A DNA stretch of 64,000 bases from Octopus sinensis (taxonomy: Eukaryota): positions 152,520,001 to 152,584,000 of the forward strand of contig NC_042997.1 of assembly GCF_006345805.1 (NCBI RefSeq), given 5' to 3'. This document shows positions 1 to 61,830 of the stretch, in pieces. Within the stretch, counting starts at the first letter, position 1; each line of letters starts with the position of its first letter. The notes beneath the pieces are model-generated. The model was given only the letters and a program-made list of their open reading frames with translations. It was not told the origin of the DNA and made no database searches. A program made the position numbers and the translations under genes.

Positions 1-1622
1 CGAGAAAATAAAGTACCAGTCAAGTTACTGTTTGTTAAAGCTATCAGCAATATCTCTCCTTAAAATTGTTTGTTATTGAGTTTAAATCAGGAACTACATT
101 TAACATGTTCTTGTTGAGAAGAAAAGGAAACTCATTGAAACCGTAGAATGATTGGGTAACTTGCAAATACAATCATATCTGGAAAACTAGAAAGTAAAAC
201 TAGAAGCTGCCAACCGAAAAGAAACTCATTCCGATTCCTAATCGAAACCACAACACCTTATTTGCAGTATAAATATAATCCCGGAAAATGGTAAAATTCT
301 CATGTTGCATTTCGACTCCTTTTATCTTAGCGGTTTTGTTCCAATAAAAAGTAAAGGCAATGTATTTGGATGTATAAGATATATTTCTCTAATATTCCAT
401 GTGCTTTATTATCAATCAATTTTCATCATAAGGCAGCTGTTGTTATTGCTGAAAGTTTGAGTGCCTACGGTTAAATACCGACAAGATAAAAAATGCCCAC
501 TGCTTAATTGTTGACATTATAAACGCCAGCAGGTGCTTTAGCAGAAAAATTTTCCAAAACCTAACTACATAATTTTCTAAAATCGTTTTTAAACTAAAGC
601 AGTTTATTAAACTGAAAGTTGACATGACTAAAAAAGAAAACTGAAATAATTGAAATAGTTAAAAATACATTATGCAATATACTAAAAGAATAATGGTGCC
701 AGTAATAACTTCAAGAATTACAGCATTTCATTCAAACAAAACGATAAATTGTGAGACGTTGACCTGAAGGAAAATAGGAAGCGAGTCAGAGTGTAAGTTG
801 CGAAAACTTTTTTAATATTGTCATTAACCATTACTTATAAATATATTTGGCCACAAGATGACGGCAATATGACTGTCGGTATTATTCTGAGTAGCACAAC
901 TTTAGTGTAATTTCTTTGTTTATTTAAAAAAATTATTAATTTGGTTAGTATTTGGCACGCGCACAAAATGCCAGAAGTCAAAATGCATATAAAACAAAAC
1001 AAGCTAGATTAAGTTGCACACAAACGTTCACACAGGTACGCATACACATACCTAAATATATACATACATATACAAAAATACGCGCACACACACATATGCA
1101 AATATTTGTATGGGTGAAAGCAATCTTTTCAAGAATTCTTTTTGTGTACAAAGTGTTTATTAAATTACAATGCATCATTTAAACGCTGACATATGCTGTT
1201 TGCTAAAGACTTTTTTCATGCTGCTTCTACAAGCTATTTCGAGATATTTCTTTCACACATTCCCATAGAGTGTTTCATTTGCAGAAATAATTAATAATCA
1301 TTTGTCTTATTTAACAAGAAAATATATAATTAGCTACAACATAAATTATTTAATTAACTCCTCGTTTTTATTGCGTTTCTTTTAATTTTATGATGAACTT
1401 GGGACAAAATCTCTCTCCAAGAATTCTTTTGGTACATTAAAAGTCTATTAATATTAATAAAAGTTAATTCACGTTAAGTTATGTGTTAGCATTCTTTAAA
1501 ATCCCAACATCATACATATATGCCTTCATTCTTTCACCCAGTGTTGCATCCAAAACAAACTTTCATAGATTTTATATCACATTTATTCACAACACATCAC
1601 TTTCCCAATATGTATATAATAT

Positions 1623-2238
1623 AAGGTGGCGAGCTAGCAGAATCGTTAGCACGCTGGGCGAAATGCGTAGCCGTATTTCGTCAGCCGTTACGTTCTGAGT
1701 TCAAATTTCGCCGAGGTCGACTTTGCCGTTCATCCTTTCGGGGGTCGATTAAATAAGTACCAGTTACGCACTGGGGTCGATATAATCGACTTAATCCGTT
1801 TGTCTGTCTTTGTTTGTCCTCTCTGTGTTTAGCCCCTTGTGGGTAGTAAAGAAATAGGTATTTCGTCTGCCGCTACGTTCTAAGTTCAAATTCCGCCGAG
1901 GTCGACTTCGCCTTTCACCCTTTCGGGGTCGATTAAATAAGTACCAGTTACGCACTGGTTTCGATATAATCAACTCAATCTGTTTGTTTGTCCTTGTTTG
2001 TCCCCTCTGTGTGTAGCCCCTTGTGGGTAAGAAAGAAATAAGAAACGTAAGCACGCTGGGCGAAATGCTTAGCGGTGTTTCGTCTGTCTTTATGTTCTGA
2101 CTTCAAATTCCGCAGAGGTCGACTTTGCCTTTCATCCTTACGTGGTCGATAAATTAAGTACCAGTTGCGTATTGAGGTCGATGTAATCGACTGTCCCTCT
2201 CCCTACAAAATTTCGGACCTTGAGCCTAGAGTAGAAAA
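1623..2238 (+). mobile_element. Three head-to-tail Nin/Deu-domain SINE copies (about 1623-1856, 1857-2042, 2043-2238)
   Basis: Repeated GAGGTCGACTTTGCCTTTCATCCTTTCGGGGTCGATTAAATAAGTACCAG core (Nin/Deu-like). The first two copies end in ...TAGCCCCTTGTGGGTA(G/A)..AAGAAATA and the third has a different tail. The same family recurs throughout the window. Confidence 0.85.
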
Positions 2239-2454
2239 TAATATGTATATAATATAACAGAATATATTATAATACTAGCATTAAAGACCCGGCGTTGCCG
2301 GGTCATAGTGCTAGTGCATGTATATATGTGTATATATATGTGTACATATTACATGTACATCTATATATATATATACATCTACAGATAAAATACAAAATAC
2401 AAAGTTATATCTTGATATCGCTAGTGATAACAATACTCAAAATATATAACAGAC

Positions 2455-2769
2455 TGGAATTGTTAGCCCGTCTCTTGTAATTTCGATCAATTGTATCTTG
2501 TCCTCCCTCTTGTATAGAAGTGCGGCTACAATCCAGCCTACCTCTACTTCTGGGGGAGGGGGTGGCATTTAAATTTTTTTTCCGGGACGTCCTACGTCCC
2601 AGATATAAAGGTAGAATTAAAATATTTCCACTTTGCAAGTCCGAGTCGAGTACTCCCTTGCACGCTCCGTTGACTCGAACCTTGCTTCTATTGTGGCGAA
2701 TTTACCGCCTCTGATTAGATAACTTTCATAGTCGCACCAAGACACTTTTCGAAGGTGCTTTCCTCCATG
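2455..2769 (-). pseudogene. Diverged internal fragment of a fourth ORF1 homolog
   Basis: Frameshifted minus-strand translation YLIRGGKFATIEARFESTERAREYSTRT / LQSGNILILPLYLGRRTSR / PPEVEVGWIVAALLYKREDKIQL aligns with the ORF1 of units A-C (e.g. FLTRGSKYGTVVVHFKSE..LLPMYMNRRITR..PPNVEAEWIVAAVI..EEKVDIL). Confidence 0.75.
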
Positions 2770-4426
2770 TTATTTCTTTATTACCCACCAGGGGCTACGA
2801 AGAATGGCGGACATAACAAAAACATGGGGACATAGAACAATATGATTAAATTTATGAGCAAATGAAAATGAAAAAGATAATATGAAAGCGATGCTAACGG
2901 CCCCCTCCGCCAGCATCACTTACCTGTCCTTTTGTTTTCACTGTCACCTGAATGTTCATTCCCAATACGAAGACCATCCATATCCATTCTTACTCCGAAA
3001 CTGTCCTCCATATATTCCACGAATTCATCGCTCATTCTTGTATCTTTCACCTCCCAATTCTCCTTTCACACCTCAACACAAACTCATCTATATTCTTCTT
3101 TTCCAGCACTGCATATCTGGTCCCATCCATTTCATACCATTCATACTCCTCCATTACCCTTTCAACCTCTTTCTGTTCAGTCACAATATAAATGTTCGGC
3201 CTGGGTTCGTTTCAAACTCTTGTCTGTCTGTATTGTTATTTTTCTTTTGTTTTCTTGTTGGAGGGGAGCGGGTGGGTTCACTGTCTGCAGGGGAAGGGTG
3301 GGATTCAGAGGGTGCGGGTGGTGTTGGGGTGGGTTGGGGCTTCGCACAGTTTTTCTTTTTCTTTCTTTTTCTCTTTTTTCTTCCTTCTTCCCACTCTTGT
3401 TGCATCTCCTCTTCTTCTGTCGTTTCTTTTTCCCTTTGGTTCTCTTTGGTTTCTTCCTCTTTTGGGGCTTCCGCGACGATTTCCTTTTCTTTTTCCTTTA
3501 GTGGTGGAGGGCAGTAGGCTCTTATGTGACCCCTCAGGCCACACTTGTAGCACCTGGGCGCCCTACCCTCCACCCACACTCTCATAATAATATTTCCAGT
3601 TTTTATACTGTCCGTAAGCTTTTCTATAACTTCCGCCTCCGTCTGTATGTTCATTACTAGTGTGGCACCTCTCACGCCTTCATATTTCATATGGCGTGGA
3701 GGATGTCCACTTTATCTTCATTTCCTTTGATAACCGCAGCCGTTATTAATTCGCCCTCTAGGTGTGGAGGTATTCCTTCCACCCTAATTCTGGTGGTCCT
3801 TCTATTCAAATACGAGGGGAACAAGTAAAACTTTTCTGTACTCACCACCTTGGCTGCTATATTCCTGGCTGCTTTCTCACTTTTAAATTGTACCGTTATG
3901 GTTCCATATTCTAATCCTTTTGTCATGTACACAATTTCTTCTCCTGTCCGTTTGAAAGCCTCTTCAATTGCTTCCATGTTAATCACTTCCATTTTTCTAC
4001 CTCCATTCATAAATACTTTATATTTAATGGTTCTACGATGGAACCAGTCTCCGCGCCCTGCTAGAGGCAACAGCTCAACCTCTCCGTTCTCCTCCTCCTT
4101 CATGAACTCCTGGAAGTCCGTCAACTTAGCCAGGTCTATCTCTTTTTCTGTTGACTTCTTCGTTATACCTGCGTAGGTGCTTTCCATTTTTTTCACCGCC
4201 AACTCCTCCTCAGATGTCGACGAATTTTCAGAGAAATTTCTCCCTTCCATCTCATCCGTTTGGTAGAGGCGGCTCATAGTCGCCTCAGACCGAAAAACGG
4301 CCTCCCGAACAGAAAACGTGCGACGCACAGAACCAGTGCGACGCGAAACCGCACCAACCGACGTTCCAATTCCGCAACCACAATTCACTTTTGTTGTTTT
4401 TCTTTTTTAACCGAATTTTACAGAGC
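2770..4426 (-). mobile_element. ORF1-only non-LTR retroelement, unit A
   Basis: About 1.66 kb unit with a conserved 5' leader (GCTCTGTAAAATTCGGT..), ORF1, a 3' hairpin and the tail ...TAGCCCCTGGTGGGTAATAAAGAAATAA. No RT or endonuclease sequence. Confidence 0.8.
3181..4280 (-). CDS. Tx1/L1-type ORF1-like nucleic-acid-binding protein with CCHC zinc knuckle (one frameshift near 3690)
   Basis: ORFs 3687..4388 and 3181..3690 join by a 1-nt indel relative to unit C. Contains a YAG motif, a putative RRM-like region, RCYKCGLRGHIRAYC (CX2CX4HX4C), an acidic/basic linker and a Pro-rich stretch. Start codon uncertain. Confidence 0.75.
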
Positions 4427-6103
4427 TATTTCTTTATTACCCACTAGGGGCCACGAAGAGGGACATTACAAAACATGAGGGACATAAAACAATGCGGTTA
4501 AATTATGATTAAATGAATGTTAAAAATGAAAAAATGATAACATGAAAGCAATGCTAACGGCCCCCTCCGCCAGCATCACTTACCTTTCCGTTTCCTATCA
4601 CGATTCCAAAGTCTTTCACCTCACCTTTCATTTCTCTCTCAAACCTCTCTATCATATCATTTCTCATATATTCTGACAAACAATTATACGTAGTTCATTG
4701 CACTTGCTCATCAAAGAGCCCATGAGTTCGAAATCGAATACCGCATAACTTCCGTCCTCATACTCCTGCCATACATTGTCTTCAAAAGCCTTCTTGCATT
4801 CTCTGTATCTCCCTTCCTCACAACACACAAAAAGTAGGACTGGGGCTTTTGTATGTTTTGTATGTCTGATTTCGTTTTTCTTGTAGGCGGGGAGTGGGTG
4901 GGTGGGATTGCTGTTTGCGGGGGCAGGATGGGTCTCCAAAGGTGTGGGTGGTGTTTGGGTGGGTTGGGGCTTCACACAGTTTTTCCTTTTCTTTCCTTTT
5001 CTCTTCTTTCTGACCTCTTCATACTCTTTTTGCGTCTCTTCCTCATCTGTCGTTTCCCTTTCCATCTGCTTCTCTTTGATTTCTTCTTCTTTTGGGGCTT
5101 CCTCTTTTGGAGTTTCCTCAACAATTTCCTTTTCTCCCGGTGGGGGAGGGCAGAAGGCTCTTATGTGGCCCCTCAGGCCACACTTGTAACAACGTGGAGC
5201 TCTGCCCTCCACCCACACTCTCATAATCACGTCTCCAATTTAATGCTCTCCGCCAGGTCCGCCAGCACCTCACTCTCCGCCTGCACGTTCAGCTCCACTG
5301 TTACTCCTCTCCAGCCCTCGGTCCTGACCGAGGCATGGAGAATATCAACTTTCTCCTCGTGGCCGCTGATCACAGCCGCCACAATCCATTCAGCCTCCAC
5401 GTTTGGTGGCACTCCCTCCACCCTTACTCGTGTAATCCTTCTATTCATGTACATAGGTAGGAGTGTTACCTTTTCTGACCTCACCGCCCTCACCGCCATC
5501 TTCCTCGCTGCAGTCTCACTCTTAAAATGTACCACTACGGTACCGTACTTCGATCCTCGAGTCAAAAAATGATTTCCTCCTCCGATTTTCTCAGGGCCTC
5601 CTCTATCCATTCCATTTTTACGATCTCTATTTTCTTTCTTTCGTTCAGGAAACCCTGTAAAGTATAGTCCTCTTATTGTACCATTCCTTTCTCTTTGGCG
5701 GTGGTTCCAGTTCTACCTCGCCGCTGTCCTTCCTCATATACCTCTGGAAACCTGGCAATTTTTCTAGGTTTATTTCATTTTCCTGTTTCGTCTTCTTTTT
5801 TGCAACTCCTGCGTACGTTTTCCTGTTTTCAGTCTCCACATTTTTTACCTCACCGATTTGCTCGTTTTCAGAGTTCGATGTCTCCGACAAGCTCTCAAAT
5901 ATCCATTCTTCCTCCGACTCCTCCACAAGGGAGTGGTCATCCATCTCTCCCGCCTGACAGGCCAAACGGCCGTCAAAACAGAAAAAGTGTAACGCGCAGA
6001 ACCAGTGGAACGCGAAACCGCTTTAACGCCGTTCAAAATTTCCACAACAACAACAATTCTTTTTGATCTTTTTTTACCGAATTTTCAGAGCGCAAAAAAA
6101 CGC
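4427..6103 (-). mobile_element. ORF1-only non-LTR retroelement, unit B (diverged paralog)
   Basis: Same leader, 3' hairpin and tail as unit A. ORF1 is in pieces (5645..5965, 5227..5610, 4664..5230) with RCYKCGLRGHIRAFC. Confidence 0.8.
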
Positions 6104-7750
6104 TTATTTTTTTATTACCCACTAGGGGCTACATAGAGGGGACATTACAAACATGGGGCATAGAACATCACAATTACATATATATGAGCAAAATGGATAT
6201 GAAAAATGGTATATGAGAGTGATACCGACGGCCCCATCCGCCAGCATCACTTATCTATCCTTCTTCACCCATTTCCAATTAGTATTCCTTTTTTTCTATC
6301 ACACACTCGTTTTCTTTTAGCCATCTCTATCCATTCATCTTTCATTTCCACTGACTTCCAACACACACCCTTTCCTCAAACCTTCTCGCCAATATACCCG
6401 TATCATCACTATCCACAGCCGTGTAGCTACAATCTTCGTGTTCGTACCACTTGGTTAACACCCATTTTTTAACGTTTTGTATGTCTTTCCCATGTATAAC
6501 ACATAAAAAATGGGTCTGGGACTTTCTTTGCTCTGTGTGTCTGTTTTTGATTTTCTTGTAGGCGGGGAGTGGGTGGAATCACTGTATGCAGGGAAGGATG
6601 GGACTCCAAGGGTATGGGTGGTGTCGGGGTGGGTTGGGGCTTCGCACAGTTTTTCTTTTTCTTTCTTTTTCTCTTTGTTCCCCCTTCTTTCCACTCTTGT
6701 TGCATCTCCTCTTCTTCTGTCGTTTTCTCTCTGTTTGTTTCTGTGTTTATTTTCTCCTCTCCTGAGGCTTCCTCAACGCTTTCCTTTTCTTTTTCCTTTG
6801 GTGGGGGAGGGCAGTAGGCTCTTATGTGACCCCTTTGGCCACACTTGTAGCACCTGGGCGCCCTACCCTCCACCCACACTCTCATAATAATATTTCCAGT
6901 TTTTATGCTGTCCGTAATCCTCTCTATAACATCCGCCTCCGTTTGAATGTTCATAACTAGTGTGGCACCTCTCACGCCTTCATACTTCATAATGGCGTGG
7001 AGGATGTCCACTTTATCTTCATTTCCTTTTATAACCGCAGCCGTTATTAATTCGCCCTCTAGGTGTGGAGGTATTCCTTCCACCCTAATTCTGGTTGTCC
7101 GCCTATTCAGATACGAGGTAACAAGTAAATCTTTTCTGTACTCACCACCTTGGCTGCTACATTCCTGGCTGCTTTTTCACTTTTAAATTGCACCGTTACG
7201 GTTCCGTATTGTAATCCTTTTGTCATGTACACAATTTCCTCTCCTGTCTGCTTGAGAGCCTCTTCAATTGCTTCCATGTTAATTACTTCCATCTTTCTAC
7301 CTCCATTCATAAATACTTTATATTTAATGGTTCTACGATGGAACCAGTCTCCGCGCCCTACTGGAGGCAGCAGCTCAACTTCACCGTTCTCGTCCTCCTT
7401 CACAAACTCCTGGAGGCCCGCCAACTTAGCCAGGTCTATCTCTCTTTCCGTTGACTTCTTCGTTACACCTGCGTAGGTGCCTTCCATCTTTTTCACCGCC
7501 ACTCCTCCTCAGATGTCGATACTTCCGTCGAAATTTCAGAGAAATTTCTCCCTTCCATCTCCTCCGTTTGATGGAGGCGGCTCATAATCGCCTCAGACCG
7601 AAAAACGGCCTCCCGAACCGAAAAAGTGCAACGCGCAGAACCAGTGGAACGCGAAACCGCCCCAACGCCGTTCAAAACCTCCACAACACAACAACTCTTT
7701 CTTTACCGAATTTTACGAGCGTAAAAAACACGGAGCCGAAAAACGCGACC
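6104..7750 (-). mobile_element. ORF1-only non-LTR retroelement, unit C (close to unit A)
   Basis: Same organisation. ORF1 is in pieces (7493..7684, 7107..7502, 6469..7083) with RCYKCGQRGHIRAYC. It has the longest 5' leader. Confidence 0.8.
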
Positions 7751-8261
7751 TTTTTTCTCTACATTGTATACTTTATAGACAATAGTCTTTTCTTTATTTA
7801 ATTTTTTATTATCCATCTGGACTATTCCATTTCTGCAGGCTAATTTTATTTTAAATTTATTCCCATTCATGTGAAACCACTTATTCAAGTTCAAGTCAAT
7901 GATGCAATTTTATACCAATTGCTATTTTTACTTTTTTTACTACATATAATTCAATTGTTATTATTATTTTTATTGTTAAAGTGAAAGTATCTGACATAAA
8001 ATAGAGAAACGTTTTTGTTTCACTTTTAACACGTAATACTGAAATAGTGGAGAAGACATGATATTGCTATGGGCTCGCTCTAGGCAAGAAGTTGAACATT
8101 TTTTTGCCCATGAAACTACATGGACCCTAAATAAGGCATGTGTAAAATTTGAATGAAATTGGTTGTGTTGTTCTTAAGTTTTAGGGAAACACACAGACAG
8201 ACAGACAGACACACATTCTCAGTTTTATATATATAAAGATAATACAATATGATATAATATA

Positions 8262-8479
8262 ATGGTTTCAAATTTTGCCACAAGGATAGCAATTTTTGAG
8301 GAGGGGGATGAGTCGATTACATCGACTCCAGTGTTCAACTGATACTTATTTTATCGGTACCGAAAAGATGATAGGCAAAGTTGACCCCGGCAGAATTAGA
8401 ACTCAGAACGTAGCAACGGGCGATATACTGCTAAGCATTTCGTTCAGCGCGCTAACAATTCTACCAGCTCGTCGCCTTA
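8262..8479 (-). mobile_element. Nin/Deu-domain SINE
   Basis: Reverse-complement match to the family at 1623-2238. Confidence 0.8.
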
Positions 8480-8548
8480 TATAATATAATACAATTTGAT
8501 ATAATTTAAAATTATATAACATGTGTGTATATGTACGTATATGTGCTG

Positions 8549-8580
<32 letters not shown>

Positions 8581-8894
8581 ATATATATATATGTGTGGTG
8601 TGTGTGTGTGTGTATATATATATGAGTATATGTACGCTAATATTGAACAGTGAGAATGGGTGCTCTACAGAGCATTGGTGGATAAATTTTCTTTCTTTGT
8701 GGGTTAGTAGCCAATGTTTTCATGTGAAAAGATCTTCACAATTGTTCAAGCATACCACATGAAAGTGTAACTACTCGTCTTCACATGAAACCATTAGTTG
8801 CTTTGTTAACCCACAAATAATGAATGAGCATGTGCATGAATATATTTACGCACACGCAAACATACACACACATATAAGCACACACATATACAGA

Positions 8895-11491: not shown

Positions 11492-11762
11492 TTCTTTTAT
11501 TCTTCTACTTGTTTCAGTCATTTGACTGCAGCCATGCTGGAGCACCACCTTTAGTCGAAAAAATCGACCGCAGGACTTATTCTTTGTAAGCCTAGTACTT
11601 ATTCTATCGGATTTCTTTTGCCGAACCGCTATGTTACGGGGAAGTGAACACGCCAACATCGGTTGTCAAGTGATGGTGGTGGTAGAGGTGGGGAAACACA
11701 GACACACAATGGCATTCATACAATATTATACACACACACACACACACACACACACCACAACA

Positions 11763-12010: not shown

Positions 12011-12175
12011 CGACGGGTTTCTTTCAGTTTCCGTCTACCAAATCCACTCACAAGGCTTTGGTTGGCCTGAGGCTATAGGAGAAGACATTTGTCCAAGATG
12101 TCATGCAATGGGACTGAACCCGGAACTATGTGGTTGGGAAGCAAGGTTCTTACCATGCAGCCACTCCTGCGCCTA
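11492..12175 (-). mobile_element. tRNA-derived SINE with internal microsatellite
   Basis: Head AGGCGCAGGAGTGGCTG..TGGTAAG..GGTTCAGTCCC (A/B boxes) and tail GACTGAAACAAGTAAAAGAG. Other copies or fragments at about 14880-15045, 31120-31240, 32780-33015, 48635-48997, 54890-55000 and 61490-61643. Confidence 0.85.
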
Positions 12176-12441
12176 TCATTCAATACTTTTTAGTTAGGTA
12201 CACACATTTTACAAGGAAAAGGTCGGTAGTGACTTTGAAGTCAGCCATCTTTCTATATACATAACATATGTATACATATATGTATGTATATATATATATG
12301 TATACATATATGCGTGTGAATATATATATATATATATATGTATGTATATATGTATGTATGTGTGTATCTATATATATGTGTGCGTATATATATATATACA
12401 CACATAGATATGTGTGTGTATTATATGTATTCATGTATAGA

Positions 12442-14883: not shown

Positions 14884-16129
14884 GCGCAGGAATGGCTGTG
14901 TGATAAGTAGCTTGCTTGCCAACAATATGGTTCTGGGTTCAGTCCCACTGCGTGATACCTTGGGCAAGTTTCTTCTATTATAGCCTCGGGTTGACCAGAC
15001 CCTTGTGAGTGGATTCGATAGACGGAAACTGAATGAAGCCTGTATATATATATATGATAAAGTAAAGTTGGCGGTTACTGCACGATTAAAAATATAAGGA
15101 AAACTATTTGAAAATGCCGAAGTCTTTTAAAAGTATTTATTAACTAATCTGGTTTCACTTATTTGAAAAGATTTTCAAAAGTATAGTGTGAAGCTTTGTG
15201 TATATTCTGTAGTGTCAAAAATTAGTTTACGTATATGTACATACACACATACCCATGTGCACGACATGTGCACGACATGTGCACGCACACGCCGCCTAGA
15301 TCAGAAGAAAACACACATATGCACACACACGTACACTTACACGCAAATACACACATATAAACTCCAAAATGCCAATCAAAACTACTGAACCATAACAGAA
15401 CCAGCTCACCAAACAAGCCCTTCTTAGCTCTACAACTATTGGAACCTTTTGATCATGTGATTGCCATCAACCAGCCACACTGATTTTAGAGGGAAATCAA
15501 TTCTAAGCCACGTTTTTCCAAAACACAGAACTATCTTTTGATCACGTGACTGTCATCAACCAACCACATTGGTTTTTAAAAAGAAGGCGATTTTGAGCCA
15601 CCATCTCTATATAAAACAGTGGTAAGTGTTAAATTCCATCCAGATGGGAGGCCCTACAACCAGATCCGAAAACTATATATGGTCTGTTATTTCTCTACTC
15701 ACCGTTTTTCACTTTAATCTGCTGCAAATAATTATGGTTTCTGATCACAGTGAGACCAAACACTTTAGCACCCACTGATTAACAAACCAGACACGTTCTA
15801 TCTTCTTGTCGAAAATTTCTATTACTTGATTTGGATATGTTTATGTAAACTAATTTTTTATCTTCTTATCAGTGTAAAATTTTTTATTACCTCATCTGAA
15901 TGTTTTTATATAAACTATCTTTTGACTGATCACAGAGGATACACAAAGCCCTAAACTTTTCCTCATCACAGTCAAAGACTCTATCACTTGAATACATTTA
16001 TGTAAACTAATTCTGCACACCACAGAGGATACACAATGCATCAAACTTTATTTTTGAAAATCTTTTTAAATAAGTGAAACCGGTTAAGTTAATAAATACT
16101 TTTGAAAGCTCCTGCATTTTCAGATTAGC

Positions 16130-20670: not shown

Positions 20671-21957
20671 ATATATATATATATATGTAAGGGTGTGTGT
20701 TTCGACGCAGGAAAAATTTGTTGTTGAAAATGCACCTAAGTTTGGAAAACTTGTACTTGTTTAAAATGCATTTATTTAATTATATACCAAACTAGTTTCA
20801 ACAATACATTTTGTTTATCAATAGTAAAAGTATAAAATTATGAACTAGAAAAACATCTTTGAAAGTTTCAATGAGTGACATATTTAAATGTTCATAACTG
20901 ACAAATTTAGAATTATGAATTAGGAGGACAGGTGCAGGAATTTCAATATTGATAAGTTTAAATGTTCATAGCAGTCAATAATATTAAAACTGTGCATTAA
21001 TTTAATTTGAATGTACAAAGCTCATTAATGTTAGTAGTGATCGACAAGAAATGAATATCATCAAAGTTTCAGTCATACTGATTTAAGAGGGAAAAAACAA
21101 GGGAGAAATGAAGATAGCTAAAAAAGGGAATTTGGTTTACAGTTTCTCTGATCCTCTTTCCGTGGGAGCTTTCGCTTGGAGCGGTATGTTTTGGAATCAG
21201 GTGTATTTATATTTTTTCCGGGAACGAATCTGATTTTTGACTCATTAAAGTACTTGTGACATCTAGTTTTTCCGGCGGTCAAGTTTGTCGTTCTGCCTGG
21301 TTAGCTTCCTTGTGGAAAACGGTCATCAGTCGTTCCGGTTGGTTGATTCTCTTAAAGGGTCATTTCGTTGTATTTACTGAAGTTCGGTTTTGATTTGGTT
21401 TAGAGTTAGGTGACATCGGCCACTGGTGTTTATAAAATTTCATTGGTCTAGAGAAAGATGACGTCGGCAACTGGTGTTTGTATGGTGATTTGGAGTTGCG
21501 GTTTATTTTTATTTTTATGTTTTTTGATTTATTATTAGTATTGCTTAATATGTTTTCCTAAAACTGCTGTTTCTTTTCAGATATCATCAGAAAAATGTAA
21601 TTAAAATTCATTAAAATGACAGAACTATCGAACATTCAAAGAGGTCAAATTGTTGGTGTTCGTATGGCAGGCGCTAGCGTAACGAAAACAGCCGAAATGT
21701 TTGGTGTATCATCAAGTACTGTCTCGAAAGTTATGACAGCCTTTGATAAAGAGGGAAACATCGCCTCGTCAAAACAAAACTCCTGAAGAAAACTAAAACT
21801 TTCAGAAAGGGACTGTCGGATTCTTATGTGAATTGTTAGAAAGGATCACAAAATTACAGCTCCCAAAATTACTGCAGGGCTTAATGCCCACCTCGAGAAT
21901 TCAGTTTCCACAAAACCTGTTCACCGGGAGCTGCACAAAGCTGGATTTCACGGGTGG

Positions 21958-22057
21958 NNNNNNNNNNNNNNNNNNNNNNNNNNNNNNNNNNNNNNNNNNN
22001 NNNNNNNNNNNNNNNNNNNNNNNNNNNNNNNNNNNNNNNNNNNNNNNNNNNNNNNNN
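21958..22057. other. Assembly gap (100 N)
   Basis: Run of N. About 1.27 kb to the left of the gap is repeated to its right. Confidence 0.99.
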
Positions 22058-22949
22058 TATATATATATATATGTAAGGGTGTGTGTTTCGACGCAGGAAA
22101 AATTGTTGTTGAAAAATGCACCAAGTTTGGAAAACTTGTACTTGTTTAAAATGCATTTATTTAATTATATACCAAACTAGTTTCAACAATACATTTGTTT
22201 ATCAATAGATAAAAGTATAAAATTATGAACTAGAAAACATCTTTGAAAGTTTCAATGAGTGACATATTTAAGGTTAATAACTGACAAATTTAGAATTATG
22301 AATTAGGAGGACAGGTGCAGGAATTTCAATATTGATAAGTTTAAATGTTCATAGCAGTCAATAATATTAAAACTGTGCATTAATTTAATTTGAATGTACA
22401 AGCTCATAATGTTAGTAGTGATCGACAAAGAAAGAATATCATCAAAGTTTTCAGTCATACTGATTTAAGAGGGAAAAAACAAGGGAGAAATGAAGATAGC
22501 TAAAAAAGGGAATTTGTTTACAGTTTCTCGATCCTCTTTCCGTGGGAGTTCGCTTGGAGCGGTATGTTTGGAATCAGTGTATTATATTTTTTCCGGGAAC
22601 GAATCTGATTTTTGACTCATTAAAGTACTTGTGACATCTAGTTTTTCCGGCGGTCAAGTTTGTCGTTCTGCCTGGTTAGCTTCCTTGTGGAAAACGGTCA
22701 TCAGTCGTTCCGGTTGGTTGATTCTCTTAAAGGGTCATTTCGTTGTATTTACTGAAGTTCGGTTTTGATTTGGTTTAGAGTTAGGTGACATCGGCCACTG
22801 GTGTTTATAAAATTTCATTGGTCTAGAGAAAGATGACGTCGGCAACTGGTGTTTGTATGGTGATTTGGAGTTGCGGTTTATTTTTATTTTTATGTTTTTT
22901 TGATTTATTATTAGTATTGCTTAATATGTTTTCCTAAAACTGCTGTTTC

Positions 22950-24080
22950 TTTTCAGATATCATCAGAAAATGTAATTAAAATCATTAAAATGATGACAGA
23001 AACTATCGAACTTTCAAAGAGGTCAATTGTTGGTGTTCGTATGGCAGGCGCTAGCGTAACGAAAACAGCCGAAATGTTTGGTGTATCATCAAGTACTGTC
23101 TCGAAAGTTATGACAGCCTTTGATTAAGAGGGGAAACATCGCCTCGTCAAAACAAAACTCCTGAAGAAAACCAAAACTTTCAGAAAGGGACTGTCGGATT
23201 CTTATGTGAATTGTTAGAAAGGATCACAAAATTACAGCTCCCAAAATTACTGCAGGGCTTAATGCCCACCTCGAGAATTCAGTTTCCACAAAACCTGTTC
23301 ACCGGGAGCTGCACAAAGCTGGATTTCACGGGTGGGCTGCAATTAGAAAACCACTACTTCCAAAAACAAACGTTGCAAAGCGTTCAGAGTGGAGTAAAAA
23401 CCTACAGAATTGGTTCTGAGAGCAGTGGAAGAATGTTATTTTGTCGGACGTGTCATCCTTTACCTTATTTCCGACAACCGGCCGAATATACGCGTGGAGA
23501 CAGCCAAAAGAAGCATCTGATCCAGACTGCCTACTTCCTACTGTTAAACACGGAGGAGGATCTGTGATGATCCGATGGGGGCTATATCTTGGAAATCCTG
23601 TGGATCAATGGTTTCCCTTCATGGCAGAGTTAATAGTCAATACTTTTGAAGCATTTGATCTGATGAAATTCATCCTATGGTTGCTGAACTGTTTCCGGAA
23701 GGAAATGCAATCATTCATGATGTTAATGCACCAATTCACACAGCTAAAGTTGTTATTGAATGGCACGAGGAACATTCTAGTGAAGTTGAATATTTTACCT
23801 GGCCACCAGAGTCCCCAGATCTCAATATTATTGAACATTTATGGTACATTTTAGAAAAACAAATAAGGAGTCGATATCCCCCACCATCATCACTACAAGA
23901 ACTGGAGACTGTTTTAGTTGAAGAATGGACAAAAGTTCCTTTGGAAACAATTCAAACTTTGTACGAGTCCATAGCTTGTCGAATTCAAGCTGTAATTACT
24001 GCCAAAGGCAGTCCTACCCCATGTTAACATAAATTTGTCTGAAATTTTAAGGCGTTTCAATTATTTTGTCCAACCCCTGT
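22950..24080 (+). mobile_element. Tc1-family transposon (DD34E-type), defective
   Basis: MTELSNFQRGQIVGVRMAGASVTKTAEMFGVS HTH region, then SDVSSF, HDVNAPIH and WPPESPDLNIIEHLW. Right TIR ..ATTTTGTCCAACCCCTG. Contains stops and frameshifts; the 5' part is duplicated at about 21580-21957. Confidence 0.9.
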
Positions 24081-25980: not shown

Positions 25981-26388
25981 ACTCTTACTCTTTTACCTTT
26001 TACTTGTTTCAGTTATTTGACTGCGGCCATGCTGGAGCACCGCCTTTAGTCGAGCAAATCGCCCCAGGACTTATTCTTGTAAGCCCAGTACTTATTCTAT
26101 CGGTCTCTTTTGCCGAACCGCTAAGTGACGGGGACGTAAACACACCAGCATCGGTTGTCAAGCAATGCTAGGGGGACAAACACAGATACACAAACACACA
26201 CACACATATATATATACATATATACGACAGGCTTCTTTCAGTTTCCGTCTACCAAATCCACTCACAAGGCATTGGTCGGCCCGGGGGTATAGTAGAAGAC
26301 ACTTGCCCAAGATGCCACGCAGTGGGACTGAACCCGGAACCATGTGGTTAATTAGCAAGCTACTTACCACACAGCCACTCCTGTGCCT
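25981..26388 (-). mobile_element. tRNA-derived SINE inserted in one arm of an inverted repeat
   Basis: Full-length match to the 11492-12175 family; the host arm resumes at 26389. Confidence 0.9.
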
Positions 26389-26583
26389 ATTTAATTTATA
26401 TAATTTTTTTTATGTATTGGATTAAGTCTTTCTTTGTTTGATTTGCATAATAGTGGTTTTGTCTCTAATTAATATTATATTATATTTTACTATAAAATTG
26501 ATTCAATCCTAAATCTGATTTTTCCCTGTAAATTTGGATTTATTCCTATATTTATTATATATATATATATATATATATATATC

Positions 26584-31800: not shown

Positions 31801-32363
31801 AAAAATGGTATACCGAATTGGATGACAAATATCTAAATACACTATATATAAAATTAACAACCTTTGTTTCTAACATAGGTACAAGGCCAGAAATTTTGAA
31901 GGAGGGGACAATCGGTGAATACGACCATTAGTGCTTCATTGATCTCGGCAGGAATTGAAGTCAGAAAGTGAAGAAACGGAAACTATCAACAACAGCAACA
32001 GCAACAACAAAACCAGCAAGAACAACATATAGTCCAGGTCTTTAGTGTTTCATTCAAGTCATTTGGAGTTGAAACGTTGGTGTAACAATGATTTTCTGAT
32101 GATCTGATGAACTAGCTTTCTTTATTTGCATTGATTTGTAAATATATGATCGCATTTATAATACTGAGCATGTAAGCATATTTCCTTCCACACTGAAATT
32201 GTTACAACATAAAGTAGATTGCAGAACAGCTACAATCCTAAGGTTATCACGTGGTTATATAAGTATATATTCACCTTTCTTGCCTCCTATATATGGTTCA
32301 TATATTCCTCTTGAAATAATTTCATCGATCGGATTGGATCTTGTGGACTTTAGCTGCATGATA

Positions 32364-32744: not shown

Positions 32745-33025
32745 ATATATATATATCACATATATATATATATACATATATAAGTATGTATGTGTGTATG
32801 TATCTGTGTTTGTGATAGTCCCCCCAATATCACTTGATAACCGATGTTGGTGCGTTTACGTCCCCGTAACTTAGCGATTCGGCCAAAGAAACCGATAGAA
32901 CAAGTACTAGGTTTACAAAGAATAAGTCCTGGTATCCATTTGTTCGACTAAAGGCGGTACTCCAGCATGGCCGCAGTCAAATGACTGAAACAAGTAAAAG
33001 AATAAAAGAATAAAATAATAAATGA

Positions 33026-37316: not shown

Positions 37317-38217
37317 TGGGGCGGGGTAGAGAAATAGGAATAAAGAGATGGAGAGAGAGAGACTTGCGGTTGATAGAGTTACAAAGAGCATGCCAGTATC
37401 TAACAATATTTCGTTAGAAACCGAAATCTTATTAAAACCATCTTTACTTTATATACTTATAGGATCGATATAATAACTTACCACTCAGGTACTGGAGTTG
37501 ATTTAATCGCCTATAAAACGCCAGGAAGATCTTTTGTAGAGCGAACTGTTTACCGAGTTCAAATCCGGCTGAAGTCAGTTTTATTTTATATCTTTTGGGG
37601 GCCAATATAATTACGTGGTGGTGAAGTACTGGAGATGATTTTAATCGACTATATCCTACCTCAAAAATCTCTCACGCCGCAACTTTTTCCATGAGAACAC
37701 TGTGCGGAGAGTGAACATACACTAAATAATATTTACTGATTTGGGGAAACTAGTCTTTTGTGAACACACTCATTTAATTTTGTGTTTATTTTTTACTCCA
37801 TGCTTGTGTACTCACAGTATGGCATACTTGTGTACTAATAGTATGGAGGGAAAAGCATGTCTTGTTAATGTATGGCAATGACTGACTATGACAGAAATCA
37901 ATATCTACATCTATATTAAGGTGGTCAGCTGGCAGAAGAATCTGTACTGGCTTAGGGGCATTTCGCCTGACTTTACGTTCTGACTTCATATGCCACTAGG
38001 ATCGACTTTGCTATTCATCGTTTCGGGGTCAATAAAATAAGTACCAGTTGAGCACTAGGATCGATGGAATCGATTTACCCCTCCTCCTAAATTGTTAGCC
38101 TTGTGCAAATATTTGAAACCATTATCTATATATGCACTAAGGCAGTAAGCTGGATGAATCGTTAGCATGCCGGACAAAATACTTAGTGGTATTTCGCCCA
38201 TCATTACATGCTGAGTA

Positions 38218-38550
38218 GTGAAGACACATGGATCAGTGGTTAGTGCGTCGAACTCACGACCGTGAGGTTGTGAGTTCAAATTCCGGACCGGGCTGCGTGT
38301 TGTGTTCTTGAGCAAGACACTTTATTTCACGTTGCTCCAGTTTACTCAGCTGTAGAAATGAGTTGCGATGTCACTGGCATCAAGCTATATCGGCCTTTGC
38401 CCTTCCTTTGGATAACATCTGTGGCGTGGAGAGGGGAGGCTGGTATGCGTGGGCGACTGCTGGTCTTCCAAAAACAAACTTGCCTGGACTTGTGCCTCGG
38501 AGGGTAACTTTCTAGGTCCAATCCCATGGTCATTCGTGACCGAAGGGGGT
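38218..38550 (+). mobile_element. tRNA-derived SINE (fourth family) nested in a Nin-domain SINE
   Basis: tRNA-like head; closely similar copy at 60300-60592. Confidence 0.85.
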
Positions 38551-40129: not shown

Positions 40130-40727
40130 AAAAATTGTTTCAAGTTTTGGCACGCGTACATCAATTTTAACGGAAAGAGGAATCGATTACATCATCCCAG
40201 TACTTGGCTGGTACTTTATTTTACCGACTCTGAAAAGATGAAAGATAAAGCTGATCTCAGCAGGATTTGAATGCCGAACGTTTAGAATCGAAATAATGCC
40301 ACTAGGCAATTTGTCCGACGTTCTAACGACTCCACCTGCTCGTAGCTTTAATAATGGCTTCAAATTTTGGCACAAGGCAAGCAAATACGATGGAGGGGTC
40401 AAGTTGATTACATCGACACGTGTGTTCAATTGATACTTATTTTATCGACCCCAAAAGGATGAAAAGCAAAGTCGATCTCAACGGAATTTGAACTCAGAAC
40501 GTGTAGATGGACGAAATGCTACTAAACATTTTTGTCAGATGTGCTAACGATTTTGCCAGCTCACCGCCTTTCCGTAGTTTTAATAATCCTTTCTACTATA
40601 GGTACCAGGCCTGAAATTTGGGGAGAGGATCCAGTCGATTAGATCGACTCCAGTACGCAGCTGGTACTAATTTTATAGACCTGAAAGGATAAAAAGAAAA
40701 GTTGACCTCGGCGGAATTTGAACTCAG
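40130..40727 (-). mobile_element. Three consecutive Nin/Deu-domain SINEs
   Basis: Three reverse-complement family cores at about 40130-40345, 40350-40570 and 40590-40727. Confidence 0.8.
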
Positions 40728-40729
40728 GG

Positions 40730-41365
40730 CATCATCTTTGAAAGGGAGGGTGGGGGTGACCAATGTGTTTCTCGCATCGGTCATCATTTACCTCCTAGCC
40801 ATCGCTCCTTGTTCAGATTCGTGGTTGAGCAAGATGGAGAGGCAAATATTTCACTTTTTGTGGAAGGGTTCCATTTCACTTGTAAGACGTTCTATTTGCT
40901 GTCAAAAACCGTTAAAAGGTAGGTTAGGGATGCCTTGGCTGCTAATGCGCAAGCATGCGCTGATATTGAGGCATCTTTGACTCTACCCGGATGGTGAACG
41001 GGTGTGGTCTCCGCTCGCTAAACAGATGTTCCGTAGCTTTACCAGTTTTGGTGGTAGAGAAACCTGGTTTCGTCGCAAATCGAGGTTGAGCATGTAGTAT
41101 ATGGAGTGCAGTAAGGCTTTCCTCCAGTTCTGCAGCTCGGGCAATGCCGGTGGTTTTGGTACCAACGTAGCTTTCTATAGTAGGTTGGTAGAGGCTGGAA
41201 ATGACGATGCCCTGGAAGGGACCATAGATCTCGATAGTAATCAGTTAGACACTCTGTTCCAAAGGACATTCGGGCCGAGGACACTGGATGACTTCCAGAA
41301 ATCCTTGGCCTAGCAATGTTACAGAGGAGCCTTGCCCGTTCGGGATAAGCTCACAAGACATGGTC
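40730..41365 (+). pseudogene. Tx1/L1-clade ORF2 fragment (region C-terminal to RT)
   Basis: SLKGRVGVTNVFLASVIIY..P..RQIFHFLWKG...VRRSICCQKPLKGRLGMP and FQKSLA*QCYRGALPVRDKL match the L1/Tx1 pattern LSLKGR..FLW..GGLG.P..W....ALP. Confidence 0.8.
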
Positions 41366-41492: not shown

Positions 41493-42749
41493 CAGGGTAC
41501 GGTGAATATATTCTAGTCTAAATTACGCAAACATGAAATAACATTGACATCTCATTTTAAGAGATATTATATTTAACAAAAACACATAAAAATATCTTGA
41601 AATATTAAAGAGTAAATTTATTCAATAAAATCGTCATTGACGTCAACCATGACTTCCAGACGACTTCGGCATCTCCTGCAACTCTTCTGGACGGTCTCCT
41701 TGTTTAAGTCGGTGAATGCTGCCATAATCCTTGCCTTCAGTTCATCTTTGGTGTTACAAGGAGTTTTGATGGTTCCTCGCTCAACTGCGCCCCCCACACA
41801 ATAATCGAGGGGGCTTACACTCTGGCGAGTCAGGTGGCCAGATGTTAGGAGTAATGTGGTTGCAGAAATTGTCTGACAACCATGACTGAGTTCTCCTGCT
41901 TGTGTGGCATGCTGCAGAATCCTGTTGCAAGACATATGCTCTTTCAGTAGCCACTCTCTTGACCCAGTGAACCACTACCTCTTGAAACATGATATAAGCC
42001 TCCGTGTGGGAAGATGAATGGGGGCATAAGATACGCCATCCCTAGTCATCACACCAAACACCATGATGCTGATTGGATGTTTGATTTTTATCACTGTCGG
42101 TACATGCAGGCGAACGTTTGTTGTGTGTTCACCCTCTGATATTAGCAGAAAATTTCTTGTCAGAGAAAAACGAAAGCATGATCGGTTGGAGGAAATGCTT
42201 AAGTTTGTTCAAAAGCTTCGTAGCGCGGACTTTCCTCTTGTCCTTGATGGCTTGGGATAAAAGTTGGCCCTTTCTCACCTTGTATGAGGCATACCAAATG
42301 TCTTCATACACAACCTGACTGATAACAAACTCAGACCTTCCCATGTCTCTGGTGATGGACCTGATTGACTTGGAGGGAATGTTGTCAATCATAGCCTGGA
42401 TCTCACCAACAAATTCAGTTCTTTTCTTATCATAATGAGTTTTCCGGGCTGCCGTACCTGCGTAATCACTATTAGACTCATCCAACTCTTTCCTAATCCT
42501 CTACACTGTCCTCAGTTTGACACCCAAACACTCTAAACTGATCGTATTGGAATATGGCGCGAATGCCAAGCAGTTCAGCATGTCGTTTACCTATTCCTGG
42601 TAGAGTGAATTGCATCATAGTGTTGTTTTTCTCACAGGTGGTTCCCAACTGACCTAACTATACTGTGTAGTCAACAAAATCAAAAACAAACAGTGCTCAT
42701 GCACAAAATCAAAAATATAAAATGGCGACAATTTACCCATCGCATCCTG
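41493..42749 (-). mobile_element. maT (DD37D) transposon, defective
   Basis: FFSDKKF and QQDSAACH..WPPDSPECKP-LDY with 37 residues between the 2nd and 3rd D (across a frameshift). TA-flanked CAGG termini. Confidence 0.85.
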
Positions 42750-46707: not shown

Positions 46708-47977
46708 TCAGGTTGTCCCATAAATTCTGTCCGAATTTTGAATAAAGAAAACAAGTGATCAAATGTTATATTTAATTGAAATTTAATCCTCAATGCACTC
46801 TCCCTGATTATCTAGAACTTCCTTCCATCTATTTACATGCTTTTTAGCCCAATCAATGTAAAACTCTTTTGATTTCAAAGCGAAGAACTCTGAAATATCA
46901 GTTTCGATCTCCCCCTGGCTTGCGAAAGTTATATCCCCCAATGATTCTGTAAACTACGAAACAAATGGTAGTCTGAAGGAGCAAGGTCGGAAGAATAAGG
47001 TGGATGAGGAATTTTTTCCCAACCAAGCTCTTCGATCTTTTGTGATGTGATCTTTGCGGTGTGGGGTCGCGCATTGTCCTGATGAAACATCTCTCCTTTT
47101 CGATTCACTAAAGCGGGTCTTTTTTCGTCAAAGCTTCGTTCAAACGCTCTAATTGCTGACAGTAGACTTGAGCATTAATTGTTGCATTAGGTGGAAAGAA
47201 TTCATAGTGAATTACTCCTTTGCAATACCACCAGATACAGGGAAGAACCTTTTACCCATGAAGTTCCGTTTTTGGTTGTGGTTGAGCTTTTCCCTTTTAC
47301 CACGTTTAACATTTCGATAGAAGATACATTATTTATCACCTGTCACAAATCTATCCAAAAAATGAAATGAGTTCGCGAGAATAGAGAGAAGAGCAGATGT
47401 CAACTCGGGATTTGCGGTTGCTTTCGGACAATTCAAGAGGCACCCATTTTTCAAGTTTAGGAACCTTTTCAAGTTGTTGAAGATGACGATGAACTGTTGT
47501 GTAGTTTGAACTAAGCTTTGTTGTCAATTCTTCAACTGATAATGCAGGAGTTTCTTCAAGTAATGCCTCAAGGAGCATATGATCAAACTCAACTGGACGT
47601 CCTGTTCGATCTTCATCTTCAAGCCTGAAATCTCCACTTCTGAATTTTGCCAAACATCTTCTGCAAGTTCTTTCATTCAAGCATTCTTTCCCATAAACTG
47701 AGTGTGTTTCGAGTCGCTTCGGCTGCAGAGTTTCCTTTTTGTACTCATAAAGCATTATGTGCCTCAAAATGCTCTTTGGATACTTCCATGTTAGAAAGGG
47801 TTTTAATCAAAGAGATTTTAATTCTATTATTCTGTAAAATAATATTTAATTAGTTCAAATGTACGCAAATGCATAAAAATAATTTTAAATTCTGTTAGTC
47901 ATTCTAAAATACTATTAAATTCATATTCAATTTAAAATAAAAAGGTAAAATAGGACAGAACTTATGGGATGACCTGA
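46708..47977 (-). mobile_element. Full-length defective mariner element
   Basis: TA TSD and TIRs TCAGGTTGTCCCATAAATTCTGTCC / GGACAGAACTTATGGGATGACCTGA. Motifs WVPLELSE, HQDNARPH and PYSSDLAPSDYHLF. Confidence 0.92.
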
Positions 47978-48086: not shown

Positions 48087-48503
48087 CTCTTTTACTCTCT
48101 TTTACTTGTTTCAGTCATTTGACTGCGGCCATGCTAGAGCATCGTCTTTAATCGAGCAACTCGACTCCGGGACATATTCTTTTGTAAGCCCAGTACTTAT
48201 TCTATCGGTCTCTTTCGCCGAAGCGCTAAGTAACGTGGACATAAACACATCAGCATCGGTTGTCAAGCAATGCTAGAGGGACAAACACTGACACACAAAC
48301 ACATCCACGCATGTATATATATATATATACATATATACGACGGGCTTCTTTCAGTTTCCGTCTACAAAATCTACTCACAAGGCTTTGGTCGGCCCGAGGC
48401 TATAGTAGAAGAAACTAGCCCAAGGTGCCACGCAGTGGGACTGAACCCGGAACCATGTGGTTGGTAAACAAGCTACTTACCACACAGCCACTCCTGTGCC
48501 TAT
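48087..48503 (-). mobile_element. tRNA-derived SINE
   Basis: Full-length member of the 11492-12175 family. Confidence 0.9.
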
Positions 48504-53267: not shown

Positions 53268-53503
53268 CATATATAAGTATGTATGTGTGTATGTATGTAT
53301 CTGTGTTTCTGTTTGTCCACCCAACATTACTTGACAACTGATGTTGATGTGTTTACGTCCCTGTAACATAGCGGTTCGGCAAAAAGAGACGATAGAATAA
53401 GTTCTAGGCATACAAAGAATAATTCCTGGGGTCGATTTGTTCGACTAAACGCGGTGCTCCACCATGGCCGCAGTCATATGACTGAAACAAATAAAAGAAT
53501 ATA
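53070..53503 (+). mobile_element. tRNA-derived SINE (diverged)
   Basis: Matches the 11492-12175 family. Confidence 0.8.

Positions 53504-61800: not shown

Positions 61801-61830
<30 letters not shown>

What the first reader, a model, noticed from the sequence alone, without database searches (positions are those of the whole stretch)
1795..2045. Nin-domain SINEs share their 3' tail with the ORF1-only elements
Seen: the SINE tail TGTCCCCTCTGTGTGTAGCCCCTTGTGGGTAAGAAAGAAATAA (about 1998-2041) closely matches the unit C end TGTCCCCTCTATGTAGCCCCTAGTGGGTAATAAAAAAATAA (minus strand, about 6104-6145). Units A and B end similarly. Established: SINEs borrow the 3' tail of their partner LINE for RT recognition, best known for the CR1, L2 and RTE clades. 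Inference: a SINE subfamily and the ORF1-only family parasitise the same, probably Tx1/L1-clade, RT. Other Nin-SINEs in the window carry a different tail, implying tail swapping.
Basis: partly seen in the sequence, partly recalled or inferred. Interest (0 to 1): 0.75.

Follow-up and report, generated by a model that had tools for sequence, protein, structure and literature searches.

The report
Octopus SINE shares LINE-derived tail
A short jumping element and a longer one that lacks its own copying enzyme end in the same 60-letter tail, so both probably borrow one enzyme, which is a new example of a known kind of genomic freeloading.

Summary
The match is real. Five copies of the tail lie in the window (0.04 expected): two tRNA-type SINEs (1625-2040 +) and three head-to-tail ORF1-only units A, B, C (2771-7750 -). 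About 55-60 nt are shared. The last 28 nt are 24-26/28 identical, while the coding region just upstream is mostly only 28-52% identical between units. The tail sits 142-149 nt after each stop codon with no SINE body upstream, so it is the units' own 3' UTR, not inserted SINE debris. ORF1 (two RRM-type domains, one CCHC knuckle, dN/dS 0.13-0.21) belongs to a large family whose named members are all octopod. The 'Nin-domain' label is not supported. No reverse transcriptase was found, so 'same RT' is inference (about 0.65) and 'Tx1/L1' is plausible but untested (about 0.5). New observations: the array splits an older relative, D. One 18-bp target duplication encloses the whole SINE trimer, whose 3' end has another tail type. 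All three SINE tail types may share a 4-bp hairpin with covarying stems. Verdict: a new member of known kinds (SINE-LINE tail pair; HAL1-like element).

The parts
1607..1624 (+). left copy of an 18-bp AT-rich target-site duplication enclosing the SINE trimer
   Evidence: exact 18-nt match to 2240-2257
1625..1856 (+). SINE1: full-length SINE (head, shared body, T tail at 1792-1856)
   Evidence: tRNA origin of the head is recalled, not shown (ARAGORN and Rfam found no tRNA match)
1857..2040 (+). SINE2: 5'-truncated SINE with T tail at 1976-2040; body 91% identical to SINE1
2041..2239 (+). SINE3: slightly 5'-truncated SINE with the second tail type; forms the 3' end of the trimer
2240..2257 (+). 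right copy of the 18-bp target-site duplication
1832..1844 (+). terminal 4-bp hairpin with loop CUUGU in SINE1; equivalents at 2016-2028 (+), 2783-2795, 4439-4451, 6117-6129 (-)
   Evidence: weak on its own (tail folding z-scores -1.2 to +0.4)
2470..2770 (-). 3' part of older ORF1-family element D (profile positions about 70-171), frameshifted and 3'-truncated
   Evidence: hmmsearch domain E 9e-8 and 9e-6; tblastn E 2e-15 to P0149
2771..4426 (-). ORF1-only unit A: 5' UTR, frameshifted ORF1, stop-codon hairpin, U-rich tract, T tail
2886..2921 (-). strong RNA hairpin over the ORF1 stop codon; equivalents at 4546-4581 (B) and 6218-6251 (C)
   Evidence: -20.8 to -23.6 kcal/mol, z -5.1 to -6.0, 0 of 200 shuffles each; only one-sided changes, no two-sided ones
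4427..6104 (-). ORF1-only unit B, divergent in the RRM region (dS about 2 against A and C), same 3' end
6105..7750 (-). ORF1-only unit C, with the longest 5' end; 90% identical to A over 3245-4369 but with a different C-terminal region
7751..7813 (-). 5' part of element D (profile positions 47-67), continuing into the part at 2470-2770
   Evidence: domain E 0.07; tblastn E 5e-4

Best explanation
The roughly 60-nt tail is the 3' end of a LINE family and acts as the RNA signal where its reverse transcriptase starts target-primed reverse transcription. Two non-autonomous passengers carry it. One is an ORF1-only family (HAL1-like): a LINE that lost ORF2 but kept 5' UTR, ORF1 and 3' UTR. The other is a subfamily of an abundant octopod SINE that took the tail by template switching at the end of its conserved body. 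Both are copied in trans by an autonomous LINE that is not in the window. Shown: the tail match, its place in the units' 3' UTR, its conservation against a diverged neighbourhood, purifying selection on ORF1, absence of ORF2 in the units, and a fixed tail breakpoint in the SINE. Inferred: RT recognition, direction of capture (LINE side to SINE), and the partner's clade (L1/Tx1 about 0.5). The head-to-tail arrays most likely arose from RT template jumps or repeated insertion at one site.
For: Tail match far above chance. The tail ends 145, 149 and 142 nt after the stop codon in A, B, C, and BLAST finds no significant SINE-unit similarity outside it. The last 28 nt are 26/28 identical in all three unit pairs and 24-26/28 in all six SINE-unit pairs, while 60-column windows over the C-terminal coding region are 28-52% identical in 14 of 15 pair-windows. 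ORF1 core dN/dS is 0.13-0.21, so these lineages spread with a working ORF1. The profile finds 398 clusters at E<=0.001. 14 of 30 looked up carry an organism name and all 14 are octopod. The model has two RRM/ferredoxin-like domains (best Z 9.4, rmsd 2.5, 81 residues) plus one CCHC knuckle. T-tail SINE bodies form a short-branched pair (support 0.92) inside the younger group. Precedents: loop-specific recognition of a 3' stem-loop in L2 elements (PMC4176376); ORF1-only elements HeT-A, HAL1, Ag-Sponge (PMC5786205).
Against: No autonomous LINE with this tail was found: no RT in the window, and no collection of eukaryote DNA was searchable. The SINE trimer has a single target-site duplication and ends in another tail type, so neither T-tail SINE shows its own duplication. 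SINE2 may be a local partial duplicate of SINE1, leaving about one independent SINE copy. The only T-tail SINEs lie 730 nt from the array, which two independent clusters would do about 3% of the time (post hoc). The terminal hairpin is not significantly stable. Units are mosaics, so recent exchange of 3' ends, not only selection, may explain their tail identity.
Confidence: 0.65

Rival explanations
1. The tail is homologous but is a passenger in the SINE. A T-tail monomer was joined once to a SINE with the second tail type, and the composite moves by that second tail, possibly with a different RT.
For: One 18-bp duplication encloses SINE1-SINE2-SINE3 and the 3' end is SINE3's tail. Both T tails run straight into a 5'-truncated SINE. 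Arrays of the form TSD-(SINE)n-TSD are described in bivalves (PMC11481361).
Against: The T tails keep 24-26/28 identity to the units' ends, as good as unit-to-unit identity. Nested insertion or template jumping gives the same outer duplication.
Confidence: 0.18
2. Reverse direction: an ancestral ORF1-only element captured the SINE's tail once, and both rely on the SINE's partner RT. The ORF1 would then say nothing about that RT's clade.
For: All SINE tail types and the units share the spaced motif CCTDGTG-N9-GAAA (16 window matches at one mismatch against 2.5 expected, motif chosen after seeing the tails) and a hairpin in the same register, so the T tail could descend from older SINE tails.
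Against: The T tail is the rarer and younger SINE type (2 of 13). In the units it continues a U-rich UTR and stop-codon hairpin found in three different C-terminal backgrounds. No SINE body remnant lies upstream.
Confidence: 0.1
3. Clade rival, conditional on the best explanation: the partner RT is not L1/Tx1 but belongs to another clade with a type I ORF1 (CR1, L2, I or the unclassified I-like octopus clade).
For: Type I ORF1 (RRM plus CCHC) occurs in I, Jockey, R1, Tad1, plant L1, L2 and CR1 and moves between lineages (PMC4120745). Only 3 of 58 SINE/LINE pairs had L1-clade tails, all in plants or algae (PMC3472496). An unclassified I-like clade exists in octopus (PMC10294476). The units have no poly(A) run.
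Against: Of 175 proteins held, 48 have one knuckle and none but an unrelated repeat protein has two or more, whereas the type I ORF1s with a stated count in PMC4120745 have three. The atlas places a relative near RBD_ZCCHC3 clusters (0.91, 171 shared features); their link to L1/Tx1 ORF1 is recalled, and one search listed no paper that I read to confirm it. Insertion into another mobile element fits Tx1 habits (PMC4494074).
Confidence: 0.45
4. SINE fragments inserted independently after each unit, or chance similarity of low-complexity sequence.
For: The tail is partly T/G-rich and A-rich, and SINEs are abundant (13 body-bearing copies in 64 kb).
Against: Same position in three units, no SINE body upstream, the units share tail features absent from the SINEs, and composition-preserving shuffles never reach the observed scores.
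Confidence: 0.02

Closest known systems
Stringent SINE/LINE tail pairs (eel UnaL2, zebrafish ZfL2; bivalve SINEs with CR1-Zenon, L2, CR1 or Nimb tails)
   Same: 35-61 nt of 3' homology at 72-95% identity is typical (PMC11481361); a small terminal stem-loop; one SINE body with several tails.
   Different: The partner seen here is an ORF1-only element; the RT is unseen; the ORF1 has a single knuckle.
HAL1 (half-L1), HeT-A, Ag-Sponge
   Same: ORF1-coding non-autonomous LINE derivatives that keep both ends (PMC5786205); ORF1 under purifying selection here.
   Different: Type I ORF1 with two RRM-type domains and one knuckle; a structured tail shared with a SINE; head-to-tail arrays of diverged, mosaic members nested in a relative.
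L1-clade tail pairs: maize ZmSINE2/3 with LINE1-1_ZM, Chlamydomonas SINEX-3_CR with L1-1_CR
   Same: About 45-80 nt conserved 3' end with a hairpin, fixed loop and variable stem (PMC3472496, PMC3747384).
   Different: Plants and algae only in those surveys; those end in poly(A); the clade here is not shown.
Crocodilian SINEU with Tx1-Mar
   Same: SINE inferred to be mobilised by Tx1; tandem insertions; insertion into another mobile element (PMC4494074).
   Different: That link rests on shared targets, not a shared tail; snRNA-derived heads.
Octopus tRNA SINEs OK, OR1, OR2 and the 'tRNA-Deu'/'tRNA-Core' repeat classes
   Same: Abundant octopus SINEs (PMC8967140; names seen in the RepeatMasker file of PMC9115989).
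   Different: Their consensus sequences could not be read, so whether this family already has a name is unchecked.

Membership tests
Nin-DC (Nin-domain) SINEs | body homologous to the ~120-bp Nin domain | tested here: not met
   Two motifs from the Lottia_Nin rows in the PMC4758252 supplement give 1 match each (0.41 and 2.02 expected), neither in a SINE copy. The SINE body shows no likeness to those rows by eye. One reference domain and a motif-level test only.
Meta or CORE SINEs | Meta or CORE central domain | tested here: inconclusive
   No likeness by eye to bivalve Meta and CORE rows shown; no alignment was run.
tRNA-derived SINE | tRNA-like head with A and B boxes | tested here: inconclusive
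   ARAGORN 0 genes; no tRNA hit in Rfam over 1500-8600; degenerate heads often escape both.
tRNA-derived SINE | short, interspersed, multi-copy, with target-site duplications | tested here: met
   13 body-bearing copies; an 18-bp duplication around the trimer and 10-12 bp repeats around two other copies.
Stringent SINE/LINE tail pair | SINE 3' end homologous to the 3' end of a LINE-derived element | tested here: met
Stringent SINE/LINE tail pair | autonomous partner with RT ending in the same tail | not testable with these tools
   No RT found in the window; no eukaryote DNA collection; prokaryote genome scan empty.
Stringent SINE/LINE tail pair | 3' stem-loop conserved in structure | tested here: inconclusive
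   4-bp hairpin, 79% of cells paired, 3 of 4 pairs with two-sided changes, above slid controls. The structure was drawn from these sequences, there are only about three lineages, and folding z-scores are not significant.
Stringent SINE/LINE tail pair | tail required for retrotransposition | not testable with these tools
   needs a retrotransposition assay
ORF1-only non-autonomous LINE (HAL1-like) | encodes an ORF1-type protein and no ORF2, with both UTRs | tested here: met
   Units of 1.65-1.68 kb with RRM-RRM-CCHC ORF, 142-149 nt 3' UTR and no room for ORF2.
ORF1-only non-autonomous LINE (HAL1-like) | ORF1 kept by selection in a multi-copy family | tested here: met
   dN/dS 0.13-0.21 in the core; three full units here; all three are now frameshifted.
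L1/Tx1 clade | RT phylogeny inside L1/Tx1 | not testable with these tools
   No RT linked to this ORF1: none of 49 distinct hits or cluster members scanned by id showed RT or endonuclease domains, nor did the top-25 family list for the 54 rows of A5.
L1/Tx1 clade | type I ORF1 variant (RRMs plus CCHC) as seen in Tx1 | tested here: inconclusive
   Architecture fits (PMC5203782) but is not unique to the clade (PMC4120745); no Pfam ZCCHC3 match was listed.
L1/Tx1 clade | target preference, often for other mobile elements | tested here: inconclusive
   The array splits relative D and all 5 T tails abut retroelement sequence, but no common target consensus is visible and n is small.

The most novel reading that the evidence does not exclude
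Octopods host an L1/Tx1-type LINE lineage that recognises its RNA stringently through a small fixed-loop hairpin, a mode so far reported for L1-clade elements only in plants and algae in the surveys read. It supports two tiers of parasites: a large radiation of ORF1-only elements that insert into one another, and a major SINE family whose three tail types track successive members of this lineage by changing the stem and keeping the loop.
Probability: 0.25. Interest if true: 0.65.

Novelty: new member of a known kind. Interest (0 to 1): 0.4.

Why it matters
SINEs are the largest repeat class in octopus genomes (about 40% of TE content, PMC8967140), and I found no paper naming their partner LINEs in the ten searches run. 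The tail is a direct handle for finding one partner. If that partner is L1/Tx1, it bears on whether stringent 3' recognition was ancestral in the L1 clade, a question left open in PMC3747384. The ORF1-only family also leaks into octopus gene annotations: three hits carry ORF1 pieces joined to LDL-receptor, WD40 or C2H2 domains, probably as annotation artefacts.

Tried and rejected
Word-index protein searches with a unit C piece (longer proteins) and with window-only alignment A4 found nothing. The third search, with A5, gave 8 hits, the 6 named ones octopus. Only the best 150 of 398 profile hits were visible; the top hit P0001 is an unrelated knuckle repeat. PDB sequence searches matched only the knuckle. 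A second model for the family's C-terminal domain was low-confidence there (pLDDT about 45-70) and was not searched. The units' own C-terminal regions did not match the hits. A scan of prokaryote genome contigs for the tail, in case of contaminant host DNA, gave 0 matches; a scan by alignment could not be run because A5 has no conserved stretch. RT search in the window: motif scan negative and 125 of 132 candidate peptides scanned with Pfam gave only transposase or HTH hits and one weak DUF. Full-text search for tail and body words gave two unrelated papers. Supplements: SINEBase files unavailable. For PMC10294476, 12 of 33 files plus one sequence-library file were searched; that file was cut to 377,213 of about 4.1 million characters, so its negative result says little about 3' ends. 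For PMC9115989 the transcript FASTA files were cut or too large. These unseen files, Repbase, Dfam and the 1994 octopus SINE paper may already hold the family or its partner. No target duplication was found around the A-B-C array; D lacks about two codons there. A leave-group-out test of the motif shared by all tail types was weak (cross-type ranks mostly in the top 0.1-7%, worst 14%, with the register chosen by me; ungapped identity reached by 28-502 of 3000 shuffles), so common ancestry of all tails is not claimed.

Full report
Observation. The window is AT-rich, microsatellite-rich animal DNA. The named relatives of its ORF1 proteins are all octopod (14 of 30 looked up carry an organism name), so I treat it as octopod. 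The tail match is real: 86% over 44 nt, five copies of the core against 0.04 expected, and 0 of 300 shuffles reaching any of the six SINE-unit scores. A profile made from the three unit ends alone recovers both SINE tails (E 2.4e-8 and 1.2e-6) and ranks them 4th and 5th of 127,682 positions. The homology covers about 55-60 nt, nearly the whole SINE tail.

The units. A (2771-4426), B (4427-6104) and C (6105-7750) lie head to tail on the minus strand and are 65-80% identical. Each has a 5' UTR, one frameshifted ORF, a strong hairpin over the stop codon (z -5 to -6), a U-rich tract and the tail, which ends 142-149 nt after the stop. There is no room for ORF2. A profile of the ORF pieces finds 398 clusters. 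The model of a relative has two RRM/ferredoxin-like domains at high confidence followed by one CCHC knuckle: a type I ORF1 in the scheme described in PMC4120745 (passages). Core dN/dS is 0.13-0.21. The A-C alignment has one 9-nt gap and seven 1-nt gaps, which may be decay or assembly error. The units are mosaics: A and C are about 90% alike over the core, all three are close around the knuckle and linker, and the C-terminal coding regions are mostly 28-52% alike. Yet the last 28 nt are 26/28 identical in every pair. Several unnamed relatives come from contigs of 1.7-1.9 kb, the size of a unit; this is suggestive only.

The tail is not SINE debris. It sits at the same distance from the stop in three units, BLAST finds no significant SINE-unit similarity outside it, and the units share tail features that the SINEs lack.

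The SINEs. Thirteen body-bearing copies were aligned (twelve came, and a fourteenth row is a head only). All but one copy, whose body breaks off early, share the body to one fixed point and then split: 2 T tails, 3 of a second type, 7 of a third, older-looking type, 1 unclassified. The two T-tail bodies form a short-branched pair inside the younger group, which favours capture of the T tail by the SINE. The body does not match the Nin domain as printed for Lottia in the supplement of PMC4758252. I could not name the family, because the octopus SINE consensuses were not readable.

Results against the simple reading. SINE1, SINE2 and SINE3 are enclosed by one exact 18-bp duplication (1607-1624 and 2240-2257), and the trimer's 3' end is SINE3's second-type tail. 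So the T tail is internal here. Nested insertion, template jumping or a composite SINE would all give this pattern, and similar arrays are described in bivalves (PMC11481361, passages). SINE2 may be a local duplicate of SINE1. The only T-tail SINEs lie 730 nt from the array (about 3% by chance, post hoc). No RT was found in the window and no eukaryote DNA collection was available, so the autonomous partner is unseen.

First, the array interrupts an older member of the same family: D's profile positions 47-67 lie at 7751-7813 and 70-171 at 2470-2774. The 5' ends of C, B and A are progressively shorter. All five T tails abut retroelement sequence. This fits template jumping or repeated insertion at one site; insertion into other mobile elements and tandem insertions are reported for Tx1 and SINEU (PMC4494074, parts 2-3 of 5). 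Second, all tail types and the units align without gaps over their last 30 nt, sharing CCTDGTG-N9-GAAA and a 4-bp hairpin whose stem is C-G in T tails and mostly G-C in the others (3 of 4 pairs with two-sided changes). In L2 elements the loop sets specificity and stems can be swapped (PMC4176376, passages). If this holds here, tail exchange was among related partners. The support is modest: few lineages, a motif chosen after the fact, and weak cross-type scores.

Mechanism. Most likely (0.65) the tail is the RT recognition signal of a LINE family, kept by an ORF1-only derivative and captured by a SINE subfamily, both moved in trans. The clade is open. For L1/Tx1: a single knuckle, an atlas lead to RBD_ZCCHC3 clusters (their link to L1/Tx1 is recalled), type I variants described as consistent with Tx1 (PMC5203782, passages), nesting in another element, and L1-Tx1 presence in coleoids (PMC8967140, passages). 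Against: type I ORF1 is spread over many clades and is exchanged between them, L1-clade tails are rare in SINEs (3 of 58 pairs; PMC3472496, part 1 of 3), and there is no poly(A) run. I put L1/Tx1 at about 0.5.

Comparison and novelty. It works like a stringent SINE/LINE pair and like HAL1, HeT-A or Ag-Sponge (PMC5786205, parts 1-3 of 5). Tail exchange among mollusc SINEs is well described (PMC11481361; PMC4758252, passages and supplement rows; PMC4824008, passages, part 2 of 6 and supplement rows). Other papers seen as passages: PMC3531059, PMC3747384, PMC5804259, PMC10294476 (part of supplements), PMC9115989 (part of supplements). No description of this octopod pair or of the ORF1-only family appeared in searches, but Repbase, Dfam and subscription journals were outside them. 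Verdict: a real, previously unnoticed member of known kinds; interest 0.4, rising to about 0.65 if the partner proves to be a stringent L1/Tx1 lineage.

Noticed in passing
window 2470-2770 and 7751-7813 (-): An older ORF1-family element (D) is split by the 5-kb A-B-C array, with about two codons missing and no clear target duplication.
   Followed up: yes
window 2886-2921, 4546-4581, 6218-6251 (-): A 14-15 bp RNA hairpin covers the ORF1 stop codon in all three units, followed by a U-rich tract; the stop overlaps an ATG (TGATG), which could be a relic of an ORF1/ORF2 junction.
   Followed up: partly
window 2771-7750 (-): Units are mosaics: RRM core, knuckle-linker, C-terminal region and 3' UTR show different pairwise relationships.
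   Followed up: partly
proteins P0009, P0011, P0024, P0031, P0062, P0154, P0171: The ORF1 family has a conserved C-terminal domain of about 70-90 residues with no Pfam match; its model is low-confidence.
   Followed up: partly
proteins P0046, P0078, P0091: ORF1 pieces appear joined to LDL-receptor, WD40 and C2H2 zinc-finger domains; the two looked up are octopus gene models; probably annotation fusions.
   Followed up: no
window 2274-2315 (+): A perfect-looking nested inverted repeat (DNA hairpin, z -6.2) next to a TA microsatellite; it recalls the ends of Helitron-associated elements (recalled, untested).
   Followed up: partly
window 40130-40730 (-) and 37915-38222 (+): Further head-to-tail clusters of the same SINE family with second- and third-type tails.
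   Followed up: partly
window 31863-31960 (-): A degraded SINE-like fragment with a second-type tail, missed by BLAST of the body.
   Followed up: partly
window 55705-57015 and 61644-61801: A 362-nt tandem repeat of about 3.6 copies at 99% identity, with a 158-nt exact copy 5 kb away.
   Followed up: no
window 20687-23335: Two 1.27-kb copies at 96% identity on either side of a 100-N gap; they hold Tc1/mariner-like sequence and may be an assembly overlap.
   Followed up: no
window 41516-42742, 51551-52805, 47354-47806, 23659-24024: Decayed DNA-transposon pieces: a 79% inverted pair, a Mos1-type HTH and a DDE_3 fragment.
   Followed up: no
window 11501-11709, 26005-26175, 32820-32994, 48107-48298, 53310-53498, 61489-61616; and 12011-12176, 14884-15043, 26226-26399, 48338-48512, 48832-48994, 54888-55014: Two other short interspersed repeat families at about 75-93% identity, often adjacent, possibly two halves of one element.
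   Followed up: no
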